Part shown: one piece after another, positions 1 to 8,813 of the stretch
Layout of the letters: every line of letters starts with the position of its first letter
How positions within the stretch are numbered: the stretch's first letter is position 1
Notes under the pieces: model-generated
The model's input: only the letters and a program-made list of their open reading frames with translations
What the model was told of the DNA's origin: nothing
Databases searched by the model: none
Origin: Moniliella sp. 'wahieum'
Taxonomy: Eukaryota
Direction: 5' to 3'
DNA length: 64,000 nucleotides
Assembly: GCA_003971905.1 (NCBI GenBank)
Contig: RSEE01000037.1
Span: 186,001 to 250,000 of the forward strand
Translations under genes and position numbers: made by a program

Positions 1-2670
1 AAATCAGCCCAGCCTTGAGACCAGGGGATAACGTATTTCATCCCTGTTTGGGGTACGCTCCCCGTCACAGCAGCGGGCGGAAGGGGTGAAGGAGCAAGGT
101 GGAAAATGGAAGTCAAATCCGTCGAAAACCGGCACTCGCTGACCAAGAGCAGGAACGCCTCCACCACAGGGTGTTCGCGATCGGCTTGGAGTTTAGGGGC
201 GAGCCACTTGGTCTGTTGGGAGGTTGTTCCAAGCGCCCCTAATACAGGCGTACCGGTGGGGTTGCCGGTCGATGTGGCCAACTGATAGGACTGGCGCAGG
301 GACTGAGCCCGCTTGTTGGTGAGAAGAAGAGCGTCAAGACAATGTCCCAATCGGACCATGTGGTGGGAGTGAGGCATTGCAATTCGGTCTGCACCCTGCA
401 CGTACCATGGGGCATTTGTTGTCCCACGTCCTCGGGTCCTGCCGCTTCGACAGGCAAGATGGAACGGTAGAACGAGATCATCTCCATATCCACCATCTCG
501 TCGCCCAATGAGGCCAACGTCTTGAGAGCAGGAGAGAGGATGTGCAAACTTAACAGGACCGGCAGTCCGCGTTGAGCAGAAGACGACCGGGACGAAGGGA
601 CTGATATGGTAGAGGTTTGCATGTGCTGATCCACGTACCGTGCCGCATGAATCATGTACCGAAGGCCGCCGACAACAAGTGAAAGCTCCAAGAGGGGCTC
701 CTCTACAGAAACAAGTGCCATACCCGCCAATCGATCCACCACCGCACGAAGAGTTAAGTTACCATAGAAGGAAGACAGCAGCTTATCTTCCATCGCATAT
801 ACCCTGGCGGACAAGGAGGAGTCATCGACTAAACCCAGCTGGTCACGCCCAAGGATGCGGGACAGACAAACGGACAGCGGCGCCAACGTCGGAGGAGGAA
901 AGATACCGAAAGAAATAACCGTCTCGAAGAGTGACAGGATAAGATGTAGCTCCCTAGGGCGTAACATAGCGAGTGGGTGCGTTGTAGGGCCTGTTGGGGG
1001 CGAGACAGCGGCAGCGTTACTCAAAGAACCTGGGGGTGATTGTGCGGAGGCCGGCGCTACAACGGGGGCGGGCTGAAAGATGTTAGAACTCCGTTTGCGA
1101 AGTGCCGCTGCGGGCGTTGCAGGGGAGCCAACAGCGGGTGCAGAGGGAGGAGGAGCCCGGGATGAGGGCTGCTCCCCCGTACCCGAGTGAGGGAGGTGCT
1201 CCATGAACTACGCTCCTTTCGGACGGTGGATTGGGACAGAGGCGACTTCACCGGGGCGGCATCCGGGGCAGAGACTGGGGAGGTCGGATCAATACCTTGC
1301 AGGGACTCACGTGGAGCAAGGGGACACCGTTGAGGATTGGAAACGGCACAAACGGCCATCAACATGTCTTGGACGGCCACCAACGGCACCTTGGCGAAAT
1401 TAAACTCAACGACAGAAAAAACAGCTCAATAAGCGAGGAAAATGTTCGCTCTTCTTGCAACATGGGGTCGTACCGCAAGTCATGGTGCAAAGGAGGTTCG
1501 GTGTCTGACAAGGTCTCCATACCATCCCTCACCCGAAATAAGTTTGTAGACGACTCAATGAAGAGGCTGTGCACCGTTTGGAGTAGCTCTGGGAATGGAA
1601 GAATGTCCCTCCCTTCTCGTGTGAGTACCAAAATGGCACGCACTTGGACCGAGCGCACCACAGGCCGGGGGATCAGTTCGTCCGTACTTGGTGGGAGTGC
1701 GTCCACTTGGGTGGAAGATGGAGAGAGGGGCGTTGATGATACAGGAATGGGCGCACGAGGATCCGAAACACGCTCCGCATCAGAAATGGATGTCTGTGCT
1801 GGCCCCTTTTGCACTGCCCTGCGTAGTGATGGGAGGGGGGAGAGGGAGTAAAGCGAGGACAAGGAGATAGAACGATCGCCTCTCGGGAGATGTGAGCGAG
1901 GGGGTGAGAGGGGGTGGTTTAGCCGAGGATAAGGGGGCGGAGGAAGGAACAGTTGGGGTGGGAAAATGGCAAGACGAGCATCGTTAAGCTTGATACTGGA
2001 CATGAGGATCTCCGTAGCAGCCAAGCGAACTGACATTGGCAAGGACGAGGTAGAACCCGCGCTCAGTGGACCTGGAGGGTCACGAGATGTCCTGCCACCC
2101 TGTAGCAAGTCCCGTGCCAATTCAAACACGTCCGACAATGCGAATGGGAGCGTGGGGGATCTGGGACTTGGGTCTCAGTAGAGGCAGGAACATTTTCGCG
2201 TGTCTCGAGGATGAGCGACTGGTTTATGCGGACCAATAGAGCGAGGAGAATGTTAGACACCGTGTTGGCCTGCGGCGAGGATATGGTTCCTCGCCTATCA
2301 GAGCAGACACTTGGGCCAAGAGGCTGTGCGCTGCCTGGTCCGACTGGGGTACGAGCTTAGCAACCTGGGCCGAGGAAGCGCCGAGCAAAGACAGGTACCA
2401 TTCGGGCAAGCCCAACAGAGCGAGGACGGGCTCAGACGCAGAGGCTGCCTCGCTGGCCATGGCCGTAGCGGACGGGGAAGACGCTGGGTCAGAAATGGGG
2501 GCGTTGCTGGAGGAGGAAGAGGCGGCGGCTGCGGATGCGGATGCAGATGCGGACGCGGTCCAGGACGGGCCACCGCGGGACCATCCAACCATCTCTCCCA
2601 CGGCTCGAACTTTTTGGAGCTGATCGCGGGGAGAGGGGGGGTTTGGAACGAGGGCGGAAGGGTCGGACAT
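1..2670 (-). CDS. TSC2: Tuberin (TSC2)-like protein, N-terminal part; continues off the left edge; frameshifted
   Basis: Joined ORFs 2224-2670, 1359-2138 and 239-1204. Motifs VLTREGRDI (cf. TSC2 ALTDNGRHI) and ELHLILSLFETVISFGIFPPPTLAPLSVCLSRIL...LLSSFYGNLTLRAV...LVVGGLRY resemble the tuberin N-terminal region from memory. ATG at 2670. Confidence 0.7.
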
Positions 2671-3268
2671 CTGCGGAGGGGACGGGGAGGTGCGTTAGGC
2701 AAGGCAGACGGGGGGCTGCGCATACACGGGAGTGGCAGGAGGCGTGCGTACTGGGGCAATGAGCACGGGAAGCGAGACGAGGCGGGGGGAGAGCGGGAGG
2801 GTTCAGAGAGCCATGAGGCGGGAGGGATGAGCGCGGGTGGAGGGGGTGGGGGTGGGGGTGGGGGAGATGGAGACGGGTGGGGATGGGGGAGGAGTGGAGA
2901 CGGGGGTGGGGATGGGATGGGGATGGGGAATGCGAGCGTGTGGCGAGCGACGGCGGAGGAGCGGACGGGGACGGCGGTGGCAGCCGTGCAGCTGGGCATG
3001 CTTGACATGTGGCATGCTGGCGCCGCCAGACAGGAGGCGATGAATATTGAATGTTCAAAAGCGCACACTTTTACAATTTCACAATTGCGCTCAGGGCCAA
3101 TTTCAAATTGCACCTTGCCTTTGGAGATTCACAAGCGAAGTCCGCCGCAGCGGGCGAATGGGGCGCTTACAAATGGGCTGCCCCGGCGTCTGGGCAGAAG
3201 AGGCTGGGTGGGCTTCGGGGTGGCCGGCTGGTGGCCTGCGCGTGTTCCCGCCCCCTACCACCCTGACC

Positions 3269-3863
3269 ATGTCTCTCACTACCTTGGCGAGTCGGAGCCC
3301 AGCGTGTTCGGCACGGTCACCAGCTTCGTCTCCTCCTTCTTCCCCACCCTCCACGCCGAGGAAGAGGAAGCGGAGGAAGAGGAGCGAGTGAGGAGGAGGA
3401 GAAGAGGAGGAGGAAGAGGAGGAGGACGACGAGCCAGTCGACCCGCGCGAGGAGATCTACGCTGCGTGCGAGGAGAAGGAATGCAGCTCGGCCAAGCACC
3501 ACTTTGACGAATGCCAAACCCGTGTCGAGGCTGGCAAGCTTCTCTTCGAGGGGAGGACTGCATTGAGGAGTTGTACGACCTTATTCCCCTTCTTTTTTCC
3601 CTTGCCCTTTCCTCCTCTCTTTTGATTTCAGCCCAGTTCCTGACGTACTAACCATTTGCTTGCTTGCGCTTCGCACCCCCCGCCCTTCCCTTTCCCCCCT
3701 TGCTCGCCATCTTGCCCATCTATCCTTATCCAGCTGTGTGTATCTCTGCCGCGTATCTCCTGCATCTCCATCCACGGACCACTGACATGTCCCTTCTGCA
3801 GTCCACTTGACTCACTGCGCAGCCGAGTGCACCGCGCCAAAGCTGTTCGCCAAGCTGGCTTAA
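3269..3863 (+). CDS. QCR6: Cytochrome bc1 complex subunit 6 (hinge protein); 3 exons: 3269-3572, 3734-3735, 3802-3863
   Basis: Acidic poly-E tract, then DEPVDPREEIYAACEEKECSSAKHHFDECQTRV...EDCIEE-FF-HLTHCAAECTAPKLFAKLA*. Introns 3573-3733 and 3736-3801. Not present as a single ORF in the track. Confidence 0.93.
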
Positions 3864-4169
3864 TACTTCACGTGCAAGGTGGACAGACCGGAACAGATAC
3901 CGACCCACGCTCAACAAAGCCTACAACCAAGCAGCCTGACGCAGCACGGCGGACTGGGCAAAGAAATGCATACTTTTTGTCCGGCGTCATGCAATGCATC
4001 CTGCACATCATGCATCATGCGCCATGCGTCATGCGCCATGCGCTTCCTCTAATTCTGTTCTTGTCCCACACGCTTTCCAGTAGACCACTGGGGTGCCCCG
4101 TCGCTGGACGCGACCGGCGAACGACGACCGGGGACCGCTTGGACCCATTGGATGCCAGTGCTAGTCCAG

Positions 4170-7100
4170 TGTAATGTCCAGTACCGGCGACTTGACCTTC
4201 CGCCGCTGACGCGGGTGGCTGCGCACGCTCACCTCTGTCGGCGGCACGGGACAAACATGATGGGCACTTCAGGCTCGGGCACTGGCAACGGGTTCTTCCG
4301 CGGCCGTCCACGTGGCCGACGAGCCGGGGGTGGGACCTCGGCCTTGACGTCTGCCTTGACGAGCTTTTTGGCCGATGGTGCAAAGGGTGAGAGAGAAGGA
4401 CGGGGAGGAGGAGGGGGACGAAGGGAGAGGGGGAAGGAATAGGTTCAGATGCAGAGGTGAGAGAGGACTGTTCGGTTGGAACGGGCGTTCGTTGGATGCA
4501 GGTGCCAGTGCAGTTGGGGTCCGGGATTTCCTCGACTTGGATTTAGTGGTGGCCTTGGATATGCGGGTGGAGTGGAATGGGCTGGTGGGCTTGGGTTTGC
4601 TTTTGGGCTTCGATGTGGGGGCGGGTGGGAAGGACTGGTAGTTTCAGACTTGCTGCTGAGCTCGGGCTTGTCAGTGGGTTCATGAGACGCAGCGGAGGTC
4701 TCGGACGGCGTGGGTGTCTGGAGCGATTTGGCGGGAATGGCCGGCTCAGTGTGCTTGGGCGTCAAGGCTTCCTAAGCGTCTTGGGCTCCTTGGGCTTTTT
4801 GGGCTCTTGGGCTTTTTGGGCTCCTTGGGCTTTTTGGGCTCCTTGGGCTCCTTGGGCTCCTTGGGCGTCTTGGGCTTCCTGGGCTCCTTGAATTCTTTGG
4901 GCTCCTGCGACTCTTGGCCTTCGTGGCTTCCTTGGCGTCCTTGGTAGATGTGCGGGACTTGGTGCTGCGAAGCGCCTAGATGGTTTGGAACGTTGGAGGG
5001 TCACCTTGGTTGTGTCGGTCTCAACGAGGCAGAGGAGTGCTCCGTCTCATTCGGTCCTTCTCACGGTGGCTGCGTCCGAGCAGACCAATCTGAGTGAAGA
5101 GGGCGCGAGTCTCCTTGGCGGCCTGAACGCCGGTTTTGAACGAAGGAAGACGTTAAAGCAGGCCGTCAGGGTCGTGCTGACGGCCGGACCGTTATGGGGA
5201 AGAAACGGTTCGTTGTCAACATCACTCCTCTCCCCCTCCGCGGACAGGAAGGGAGCACGACGAAGCGCATAGTAGCGTGCTGCATCACGAACCCATTCCA
5301 CCCCATACGGCTTGGCGTGCATATTGAAAAAGACAAGATTAGGATCGAGGACTTGACCTTTTTCCGTCTCGTAGGCTTTTGATTTGCGCAGCTGACCGAG
5401 ACTGGTGTGCAGCGTGCGCTCCCCCTCCAACGAGGTAACATAAAGTGAACGTCTCGTCCAGGCTCTGGAGCAAATCCGGGTCCAGCACCGACTCATCCCC
5501 TTGACTCGACACCAAGGGCTCCAAGTGAGAAAGCGCATTGCCGCCCCCGACGCAGGCCAAGAGCATCCGTCCATCACGCTCCCGTAGCCAGGAACTGACG
5601 AGGACCAAGAGCCGCATGCGCAGCCAGAGCTGGAACCCGCACGGTACACGGCCGCGAGCACGGCAACGGGCGTCTTGTCTTTCCCACTGCGCGCGTCAAA
5701 GGTGGGTGGGCAGCGCGAGTTGAGCCTGAGCAAACGCTGGCCATTTGATGCGATGGTCCCCCGGCGTTTGCGGGACGGGGTCAAAGAAGAGCGAGACAAG
5801 TAAGGTGGGCAGCGGAGCTGACATCTTATCGTACAGGCCCATCATGAGCAGTGGCAAATCGGTAGGGAATATCGATGCCCGTATGGACGCGATCGAGAAT
5901 CGCCTTAAGCCAAGTTCGGGAAGAGAGGAAGACCACAATGCATAGGAACAGCGAGCTGGCCTTAAGACCGAGACACGTGCCTGTTGCGCTCGGAGTGTAC
6001 GCCCCAGTTCGGAATCACATTGAGTTCTGCCACAGTGTAGGGGGGGGTGGTGGGGTGAAGCAGCCACTGGATCAAATGGGAAATGTACGCGCGCAGCCGG
6101 CCCGCACTTGCGGTGCTTGTCTTGGGCTTGTGCGCGCGAGGACGATACTCTTGTCCGCCTAGACGCGGGTCATAGAGCCGTCTTGCCTCCTCGGACTCGG
6201 AGCACATCCACACCTTCTGTTGCGCCAGAGCAAAGGCGCTCGCACCTCGGATCACAGGCCGGACGAAGATGCGCCAACGATCCACAGGCGCAGTCAGTTT
6301 CCGCGAGGTCGACCTGAGCTCCGAGCCCATTGGTCGCCCCCCGGTCTCCCATCGGACGCTGAGGCAGGGGACGGAGATGCTCTCCCCGCGAACCAACAAA
6401 GGGGTCAAATCATCCCACATGTCCGAGTCGGTGTAGCCAACGTCCACCTCATAGTCGAGCATTTGCGGGCGGGGCGAGTCAAACGTGCGCAAGTCTAGCG
6501 CAGAGATATGTGTTAGGAGGGCCCAGTGTGCAAAGAGACACAACACACGTACCGTTGGCATAGCGTTTGCTAGACACTTGTTTCAGCATCTCGCCCATTT
6601 TCCTATTGGCATACAAGGACCGAAGGAGCTGCGCCACCGTCTGCGCATCCGATTTGGCAGGTAACGCGTTAGCCGTCGCACCGTCCAATGCTGATGCAGA
6701 AGGAACGTAGCCGTGCTGCTGAAGGAAACTGATGTTCTGCTGCAGCTGAGCTGTGGGATCAGCCAACGTTCTTGGTTGGTCCAGCATTGGTTTATCCGGC
6801 GTTGGGTTGGAGGGTTCAGCTGGCTGGCGCTTCTTCCTGCGCAGCCTCCTTCTCCTTTGGGGGCAGATGCCTCAGGTACGCCGGGACCAACCAGGACTGC
6901 AGCCCAAATGCTGGATCCCCCAAGGGATCCTCAGGGAGGAAGCGCTGACCAGGCAGGAGGGGCAGGACGTCCTCTATCCTAGGCTCGGGCTTGTCCGGGA
7001 GAGGGTCCGTCCGCAGGGAAGGGCTCAGAAGTGCATGGGCAGTAGCTTGAGCGGGCGAGACGACGGCGGTGTTCGAGCCTGGTGCCAGCGCAGGTACAGA

Positions 7101-7992: not shown

Positions 7993-8675
7993 TTAGCAGT
8001 TGCATGCGTCCGAGTCGGTCTGGGCGCCTCCCTCAGATCCACCCCGCCCCTGGTCTGGGCAGCTTACTAGCCGATGAAGTGGGGGTACGAGGGAGCTTCT
8101 CGGCGATGAGACGGAAGAGCTCGGTGACATGCAGGCCCGATTTGGCCGAGGTCTCAATGAAGAGCAGACCTTCTTGCGCAGCATATGCCTCGGCCTCCTC
8201 GGTGGGCACTGCCTGGCGTCGGTGGCCAGATCCGCTTTGTTGCCGGCCAATGCAATGACAATGTTGGGGTCAGCCTGGCGGTGCAGCTCGGCGATCCACT
8301 CCTTGGCCTTGGCGAGGGACGACTGGGGGGAGCAAGGCAGGTGAGCAGAGGAGCAAGCGGAGAAGCAGAACAAGGGCAGGGGAGACAGCGTGCGTACCGG
8401 CTGGGTGACGTCGTACACGACGACGGCACAGTTGCGTTGCGGTAGTACATGGGGGCCAAGGACTTGTATCGTTCCTGGCCGGCCGTGTCCCAGATCTCGA
8501 ACTTGACAATGGTGGCGGGGTCGAGGCGGATGGACTGGGTGAGGAAGCAGCGCCGATGGTGGACTCGCGGTAGTCGTCGAACTGGTCCTTGACGAAGCGC
8601 ATGACGAGGGCTCTTGCCCACGGCGGACTCGCCGAGGAGGACGAGCTTGAACTGGAATGTCTGCGGGGCGGCCAT
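7993..8675 (-). CDS. Rab5-family small GTPase (Ypt5/Vps21/Ypt52-like); intron 8323-8397
   Basis: [48 protein letters not shown] and C-terminal CNC prenylation motif. Confidence 0.95.
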
Positions 8676-8813
8676 GGGGGGCGGGGGGGGGGCGGGCGCG
8701 CGGTGGGAAGGGGCGGGCGCGGCGGGTATTAGATGTCGATGGCCTCGGCGGGCGACAAGAGCCACGGCAGGAGCGAGAAGGGCGGCGCGCTCCACACGGC
8801 GCGGTGCCATGTG

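What the first reader, a model, noticed from the sequence alone, without database searches (positions are those of the whole stretch)
3573..3801. 2-nucleotide microexon (CT, 3734-3735) needed to complete QCR6
Seen: splicing 3573-3801 as one intron leaves QCR6 out of frame (GAG GAG TT|T CCA...). The region has two complete sets of intron signals. The first is donor GTACGA (3573), a perfect branch point TACTAAC (3646-3652) and an AG-free pyrimidine tract to the first CAG (3731-3733). Then come 2 nt CT, a second donor GTGTGT (3736), branch ACTGAC (3781) and CAG (3799-3801). Keeping CT gives GAG GAG TTC TTC CAC = E-E-F-F-H. Known: this matches the hinge-protein consensus DC(V/I)EEFFHL. Inference: an extremely small internal exon that gene predictors would miss, possibly conserved in related fungi and requiring ordered splicing.
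Basis: partly seen in the sequence, partly recalled or inferred. Interest (0 to 1): 0.78.

Follow-up and report, generated by a model that had tools for sequence, protein, structure and literature searches.

The report
Conserved two-base exon in fungal QCR6
A fungal gene for a small respiratory-chain protein (QCR6) stays in frame only if a two-base exon between two introns is kept; all five copies in this genome share the layout and many public gene models break at this spot, but exons this small are already known in fungi and plants.

Summary
The 2-nt exon CT (3734-3735) is the only way to rebuild the conserved DCIEEFFHL motif: none of 96 single-intron excisions does, and no nested one. All five QCR6 copies of this assembly keep GT..AG|YT|GT..AG although some of their introns have diverged to near background; one copy has the synonymous TT. 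So the window's long-read indels do not explain it. No RNA reads were found, so splicing is inferred. Intron 1 has a distant branch point (65-84 nt from the AG in all copies, 16-18 nt in intron 2), which probably lets the two introns be removed one after the other. Public protein models break at this spot in 45 of 89 NCBI-named homologs, and peptide footprints suggest the same exon in relatives. The class is known: 57 two-base exons in Coprinopsis, one-base exons in Arabidopsis and Fusarium. This scan noted other 1-2-nt fungal exons on other DNA, none in QCR6. New member of a known kind.

The parts
3269..3572 (+). QCR6 exon 1 (ATG, acidic GAG repeat, hinge domain up to GAG GAG TT); frameshifted as assembled by probable long-read indels
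   Evidence: Pfam UCR_hinge PF02320 E 1.1e-8 for 3425-3556
3573..3733 (+). Intron 1, 161 nt, after the second base of the first Phe codon (position +2 after EE)
   Evidence: 145-163 nt in the five copies
3646..3652 (+). Predicted branch site TACTAAC of intron 1 (A 3651), 78 nt from the donor and 82 nt from the 3' splice site; a second CTGAC candidate lies 8 nt upstream (3640-3644)
   Evidence: donor-to-branch 78-80 nt and branch-to-AG 65-84 nt in 5 of 5 copies; not mapped experimentally
3653..3730 (+). AG-free, 79% pyrimidine spacer between branch site and acceptor; predicted unpaired
   Evidence: 75-83% pyrimidine, no AG in all copies; z +1.43, centroid unpaired here
3734..3735 (+). 2-nt microexon CT: last base of the first Phe codon and first base of the second
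   Evidence: CT in four copies, TT in L003 (synonymous)
3736..3801 (+). Intron 2, 66 nt, ordinary anatomy (position +4 after EE)
   Evidence: the same position is used alone by 9 of 80 metagenome loci
3781..3786 (+). Predicted branch site ACTGAC of intron 2 (A 3785), 16 nt from the 3' splice site
3802..3863 (+). QCR6 last exon (TC CAC ... HLTHCAAECTAPKLFAKLA, stop TAA 3861-3863)
   Evidence: 86-92% identical in L006-L008

Best explanation
The gene is QCR6 (cytochrome bc1 hinge protein) of a basidiomycete, probably an Exobasidiomycete. It has three exons, the middle one two bases long and constitutive. Shown from sequence: two complete, separate GT-AG introns flank CT, and only their separate removal gives the conserved protein. 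Inferred: each intron is recognised on its own (intron definition) and they are cut one after the other, so the spliceosome never has to define a 2-nt exon. Intron 2 is short and ordinary and probably goes first, fusing CT to the last exon. Intron 1 branches about 78 nt after its donor, which ties donor 1 to its own branch point and not to that of intron 2 (this prevents skipping), and then takes the first AG downstream across an AG-free pyrimidine spacer that also keeps the U2 site away from donor 2. Skipping gives a frameshifted protein without the C-terminal helix, so it would be an error, not an isoform.
For: Frame test. Exhaustive excision: 0 of 96, 93, 97, 123 and 130 single excisions give native spacing; of 2605-4996 double excisions per copy only the microexon (in either order) does, plus one poor-donor variant in L003. 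Five copies keep the layout; intron similarity between L001 and L003/L004 is near background (z 0.1-2.4), L003-L004 still detectable (z 2.6-5.0). The exon varies only at the wobble base. EDCIEEFFHL is the sequence of solved fungal hinge proteins 8q1b_F and 7rja_H. Branch-to-AG distance 65-84 nt against 16-18 nt in intron 2, a median of 14 (max 37) in 52 metagenome QCR6 introns (3 of them were mis-cut by the pattern), and an excess at 10-19 nt in 185 kb of this genome (59 against 39+-5.7 in shuffles). Skip products share no tail between copies. Precedents: consecutive removal, upstream intron more often delayed, in plants (PMC8831610 passages); first-AG scanning from distant branch points (PMC1431707 Background); longer unpaired branch-to-AG regions before vertebrate microexons (10.64898/2026.01.16.699960 abstract and passages).
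Against: No RNA read or contig from this organism or a close relative covers the junction. Branch points are predicted only. The five copies are one assembly and three lineages, not five independent species. The distant branch point is not generally needed: peptide footprints of two Malassezia-like ORFs (P0013, P0061) fit the same CT exon with a branch site only about 6-9 nt upstream (back-translation only). A strict genome-wide pattern for distant-branch 2-nt exons gave 2 hits, one of them a QCR6 copy, against 7 for the reversed control. The order of removal is untested; in plants both orders occur.
Confidence: 0.9

Rival explanations
1. Assembly artefact: one ordinary intron, with two exonic bases lost to long-read errors.
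For: The assembly is indel-rich: exon 1 is frameshifted in 4 of 5 copies, neighbouring genes are broken too, and the window lacks two bases just inside intron 1.
Against: All five copies, including the intact L004, lack the same two bases at the outer boundaries and carry exactly one AG-NN-GT with a second branch site. Independent public genomes give the same EEFPP frameshift in their models.
Confidence: 0.02
2. Nested twin intron (stwintron) or recursive splicing: the inner signals serve stepwise removal of one large intron, and CT is not exonic.
For: Stwintrons are established in fungi (PMC5587772, abstract), and the region holds two full sets of signals.
Against: Enumeration of all consecutive GT/GC-AG excisions, nested ones included, finds no nested solution with native spacing in any copy. 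Without CT the frame is lost.
Confidence: 0.02
3. Regulated switch: skipping of the exon or retention of a flanking intron is used to turn QCR6 down under some conditions.
For: The exon is frame-breaking; intron 1 has a distant branch point, which goes with alternative splicing in human exons; three copies use the less common AAG acceptor; a regulated microexon is reported in Trichoderma xlr2 (search listing only).
Against: No conserved element in intron 1 beyond splice signals, no Rfam match in the introns, no stable structure, skip products not conserved. Related loci do without intron 1 altogether.
Confidence: 0.08
4. The microexon is real, but the distant branch point is incidental (intron growth behind the branch site) and plays no part in its inclusion.
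For: Malassezia-like footprints with a near branch site; the spacer length varies from 65 to 84 nt.
Against: Donor-to-branch distance is fixed at 78-80 nt and the spacer stays AG-free and pyrimidine-rich in three diverged lineages; footprints of the two closest outside relatives (P0003, P0005) also fit a branch site 40-75 nt upstream (my reading). This rival concerns the mechanism only and is compatible with the exon being real.
Confidence: 0.4

Closest known systems
Exons of 3 nt or less in the long-read annotation of Coprinopsis cinerea (PMC12230235; passages and supplement searches read)
   Same: Basidiomycete internal exons of 2 nt (57 exons in 50 genes; 13 of 1 nt) whose omission often breaks the frame.
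   Different: QCR6 or hinge is not named in the main text or in the 5 readable supplements (one PDF was too large and the supplement store gave no answer). Those exons rest on long reads; this one does not.
One-nucleotide exon of Fusarium CYP621A (Nelson and Syed 2026, PMC12940212; passages read)
   Same: Tiny constitutive exon inside a conserved protein motif, inferred from orthologs and missed by gene models.
   Different: 1 nt, ascomycete P450, confirmed by SRA reads.
Arabidopsis APC11 single-nucleotide exon (Guo and Liu 2015, PMC4674806; parts 1-2 of 3 read)
   Same: Constitutive and frame-essential; putative branch point 44 nt upstream; the authors favour intron definition with consecutive removal.
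   Different: Plant, 1 nt, tested by mutation.
Distant-branch-point introns with AG exclusion zones (Gooding 2006, PMC1431707, Background read) and extended branch-to-3' splice-site regions before neural microexons (Randazza 2026 preprint; abstract and passages read)
   Same: Branch site far from the AG, AG-free unpaired pyrimidine spacer, proposed relief of steric clash.
   Different: Vertebrate, mostly alternative exons of 3-27 nt under SRRM4 control; medians 45-47 nt there, 65-84 nt here.
Stwintrons (Fekete 2017, PMC5587772; abstract read)
   Same: Two introns removed consecutively at one site in fungi.
   Different: Here the introns are side by side, not nested, and two bases stay in the mRNA.

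Membership tests
QCR6 / UCR_hinge (PF02320) | Hinge domain above the Pfam cut-off | tested here: met
   35.5 bits against cut-off 27.2 for window 3425-3556; 38.5 for L004 exon 1; 5 genomic matches over cut-off
QCR6 / UCR_hinge (PF02320) | Acidic N-terminal stretch and C-terminal DC-x-EE-[FL]-F-H ... C ... P-K-L-F helix | tested here: met
   Spliced translation against solved structures
Constitutive ultra-short internal exon (1-3 nt) | Flanked by two complete spliceosomal introns (donor, branch site, AG) | tested here: met
Constitutive ultra-short internal exon (1-3 nt) | Needed for the frame, with no other splice route | tested here: met
Constitutive ultra-short internal exon (1-3 nt) | Conserved in homologous genes | tested here: met
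   DNA: 5 of 5 copies in G000; 0 of 80 metagenome loci, which use other intron positions. Other species: protein footprints only
Constitutive ultra-short internal exon (1-3 nt) | Bases present in the mature mRNA | tested here: inconclusive
   No run holds the stretch above a 0.04 word share; 4 of 24 runs laid, none covers the junction
Constitutive ultra-short internal exon (1-3 nt) | Near-complete inclusion across conditions | not testable with these tools
   needs RNA-seq of the organism
Distant-branch-point intron (AG exclusion zone) | AG-free zone over 40 nt that starts at a branch consensus with an adjacent pyrimidine tract | tested here: met
   65-84 nt, 75-83% pyrimidine in 5 of 5 copies
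Distant-branch-point intron (AG exclusion zone) | Branch point mapped by lariat sequencing | not testable with these tools
   no lariat data
Stwintron | Inner intron interrupts the donor, branch site or acceptor of an outer intron | tested here: not met
   no nested solution

The most novel reading that the evidence does not exclude
The 2-nt exon is old and widespread in Basidiomycota (Exobasidiomycetes, Malassezia and several mushroom-forming orders), lost by single-intron deletion in other lineages, and part of an intron hot spot: four positions (+1, +2, +4 and probably +8 after EE) within three codons of a core respiratory gene. Lineages would then have solved the same splicing problem in different ways, with a distant branch point here and very short introns with a near branch point in Malassezia. 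That would be a natural experiment on how the spliceosome handles exons of a few bases, and would explain why about half of the public QCR6 models sampled are broken.
Probability: 0.4. Interest if true: 0.5.

Novelty: new member of a known kind. Interest (0 to 1): 0.3.

Why it matters
It corrects a systematic annotation error in a core mitochondrial gene: 45 of 89 NCBI-named homologs sampled do not read the native motif, and 0 of 10 members of one Tilletia cluster do. A short housekeeping gene with one 2-nt exon, five diverged copies in one genome and relatives lacking either intron is a convenient model for testing intron order and the role of a distant branch point in fungal microexon splicing. 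[quoted passage not shown]

Tried and rejected
RNA evidence: 24 runs listed, all at word share 0.04; 4 laid at 80% likeness gave one 42-base intronic chance match and no joints; no evidence either way. DNA of relatives with both introns: none among 80 metagenome loci kept of 116 confirmed (the seed pattern lay in exon 1 and most hits look ascomycete-like; the script flagged L009/L010 as +2, but they are in frame only as +4); GTDB gave nothing; the single viral hit L094 is not QCR6. Other 2-nt exons in this genome by pattern: 2 distant-branch hits and 27 near-branch hits against 105 for the control; none of the 27 could be shown to be an exon. Calling introns from homeologous contigs failed because synteny with the window is limited to QCR6 and one neighbour. 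Intronic RNA or structure: no Rfam match in the introns, 11 sub-threshold miRNA hits in the exon-1 repeat; folding no better than shuffles. A first alignment (A1) held one off-frame row and was not used. Literature: no paper on this exon in searches for QCR6+intron+exon (12 papers, listing only), two-nucleotide exon phrases (4 papers), microexon+fungi+basidiomycete or branch-site terms; subscription journals are mostly not covered. The potato invertase mini-exon papers (Simpson 2000, 2002) were seen as references only; that they show a needed distant branch point is recalled, not checked.

Full report
Observation. Removing 3573-3801 as one intron gives EDCIEEFPLDSLRSRV..., out of frame; keeping CT (3734-3735) gives EDCIEEFFHLTHCAAECTAPKLFAKLA and a stop at 3861-3863. 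The exon-1 peptide is a UCR_hinge domain above the Pfam cut-off, and EDCIEEFFHL is the sequence of two solved fungal hinge proteins. A donor-quality HAG-NN-GTRHG arises in 12 of 5000 shuffles of the intervening sequence.

Is it an assembly error? The assembly is noisy. The window's exon 1 is frameshifted as assembled, as are 3 of the 4 other copies, and the odd donor GTACGA reads GTACGT in the closest copy, which has two more bases just inside the intron. But the genome (69.5 Mb, 223 contigs) holds five QCR6 copies at 76-100% identity, and all five read GAG GAG TT|GT ... AG|YT|GT ... AG|TC CAC, each with exactly one AG-NN-GT and one branch consensus for intron 2. One copy, L004, is intact from ATG to the junction. 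The exon is CT in four copies and TT in L003: the base that changes is the wobble base of a Phe codon, the base that stays is the first base of the next. Intron similarity between the window and L003 or L004 is near background (z 0.1-2.4), so the signals were kept while the rest drifted; L003 and L004 are still detectably alike (z 2.6-5.0). The five copies amount to three lineages in one assembly.

Is there another splice route? I enumerated all GT/GC-AG excisions of 30 nt or more. None of 96, 93, 97, 123 and 130 single excisions restores native spacing. Of 2605-4996 double excisions per copy, nested ones included, only the microexon route (either order) does, plus one variant with a poor GC donor giving L-I in L003. 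A stwintron (PMC5587772, abstract) is therefore not supported.

RNA. No public run holds this stretch above a word share of 0.04; 4 of the 24 runs were laid and none covers the junction. Splicing is inferred, not shown.

Relatives. A tree of 42 QCR6 proteins (73 columns, weak) places this genome with three unnamed Logan proteins next to Tilletiaria anomala (96/87), apart from Tilletia and the Ustilaginales: probably an Exobasidiomycete. Among 80 metagenome loci (kept of 116), 64 have one intron one base after the EE codons (+1), 9 have one intron at +4, the position of intron 2, and 7 have none there; none has the double layout (L009/L010 re-read by eye). The +1 group looks ascomycete and the +4 group basidiomycete by their C-terminal peptides (my reading; the contigs are unnamed). 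For other species I have protein evidence only. Of the 120 best hits listed of 579, 89 carry an NCBI name; 44 read the native EE-[FLM][FY]H-x-x-HC and 45 do not (a few of the 45 may be true variants or broken slightly downstream). Sympodiomycopsis kandeliae, Exobasidium rhododendri and Tilletia controversa models read EEFPP..., the very frameshift of the one-intron model; in the Tilletia cluster 5 of 10 read EEFPP, 4 EEFKIF, 1 lacks the region. Unspliced ORF calls ending EEL-stop or reading EELYV are what TT|GT read-through gives, while close uninterrupted homologs read EEFFH. Four such read-throughs long enough to test (P0003, P0005, P0013, P0061) all carry a peptide footprint of AG-CT-GT (shuffle fractions 0.31, 0.14, 0.18, 0.017); a fifth (P0019) stops after 7 residues; of ten read-throughs of the +4 type one has a footprint. 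Ustilaginaceae-like ORFs read EEFC, that is +4 only. Mushroom models such as LYIVH and LYAVH (Suillus), PDH (Trametes) and IMMHC (Mycena, Lentinula) fit a +2 donor, a +4 acceptor and in some a further boundary at +8. This is back-translation from faulty models and needs DNA.

How it works. Intron 2 is ordinary: 58-67 nt, branch site 16-18 nt from the AG. Intron 1 is not: in all copies the branch consensus lies 78-80 nt after the donor and 65-84 nt before the AG, with an AG-free spacer of 75-83% pyrimidines that is predicted unpaired. Typical distances are shorter: median 14, maximum 37 in 52 metagenome QCR6 introns, and a crude pattern scan of 185 kb of this genome shows an excess only at 10-19 nt (59 against 39+-5.7). 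The likely sequence, all inferred: intron definition, consecutive removal, intron 2 probably first; donor 1 pairs with its own branch site about 78 nt away and not with that of intron 2 about 212 nt away; the 3' site is then found as the first AG downstream. Each step has a precedent: consecutive removal with the upstream intron more often delayed in plants (PMC8831610, passages; PMC4674806, parts 1-2), first-AG scanning from distant branch points (PMC1431707, Background), and long unpaired branch-to-AG regions before vertebrate microexons (10.64898/2026.01.16.699960, abstract and passages). Against a general rule: one preprint found only a weak link between AG-exclusion length and microexon inclusion (10.1101/2024.09.17.613571, passages); the Malassezia-like footprints fit a branch site 6-9 nt from the AG (Malassezia introns are described as very short, PMC7426719, passage); and a genome-wide pattern found no further such case beyond chance. 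Skipping yields unrelated tails in the copies, so a functional skip isoform is unlikely.

Comparison with what is known. Coprinopsis cinerea has 57 two-base exons in 50 genes and 13 one-base exons (PMC12230235, passages); one-base exons are shown in Arabidopsis APC11 and Fusarium CYP621A. QCR6 is not named in the Coprinopsis text or its 5 readable supplements (one file too large, the supplement store silent, so a list naming it may exist), nor did searches list a paper on this exon. Earlier notes of this scan hold 13 findings with the words microexon, fungal, nucleotide, exon on other genomes and no look-alike of this sequence.

Verdict. A real, conserved, frame-essential 2-nt exon (confidence 0.9), a new member of a known kind. 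Its value lies in the annotation fix, the conserved distant branch point and the likely cluster of intron positions at this motif. Interest 0.3.

Noticed in passing
G000: C37:189260, C92:129196, C33:541787, C77:298605, C8:304431: Five copies of a normally single-copy gene in three sequence lineages (pairs at about 93% and near-identical, plus one single), with a shared neighbouring gene, in a 69.5 Mb assembly: suggests a polyploid hybrid, a mixed culture or unmerged haplotypes.
   Followed up: partly
window 3269-3572; 7993-8700; L105:354-1483: Frameshifting indels in homopolymers and GAG repeats in QCR6 exon 1 and in neighbouring genes (a Rab-type GTPase; a PRPP-synthetase-like gene on C77; names are my reading of the translations): the assembly looks like unpolished long reads, so single-copy frameshift claims in this genome need care.
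   Followed up: partly
L009-L088 (metagenome QCR6 loci): The intron sits after the first base of the first Phe codon in 64 loci and after the first base of the second Phe codon in 9: one codon apart, a possible intron slide or a trace of an ancestral 3-nt exon.
   Followed up: partly
proteins P0091, P0099, P0101-P0103, P0110, P0114, P0116, P0128, P0130, P0134, P0139, P0145: Many mushroom QCR6 models lack two residues (EE-I/L/F-MMHC), which fits a further intron at +8 and a missed 6-nt exon, or a 2-nt plus a 4-nt exon.
   Followed up: partly
window 3640-3652; L002, L004, L005: Two branch-site candidates 8 nt apart in intron 1 in four of five copies (CTGAC/CTGAT, then CTAAC/CTGAC).
   Followed up: no
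window 3269-3360: N-terminal leader ending in ...FFPTLHAEEE, shared with other fungal QCR6 proteins (P0002, P0006, P0010); may be a processed targeting sequence (inference).
   Followed up: no
window 4780-4944: 9-bp tandem array (CTTGGGCTC, 14-19 copies); on the minus strand it would encode a three-residue repeat, probably in a mobile-element ORF lying in the roughly 4 kb that separates QCR6 from its neighbour only in this copy.
   Followed up: no
L009:1642-1650: TTG T|GTGAGT puts a second GT two bases upstream of the +4 donor, exactly at the +2 position; a hint at how a +2 donor could arise, untested.
   Followed up: no
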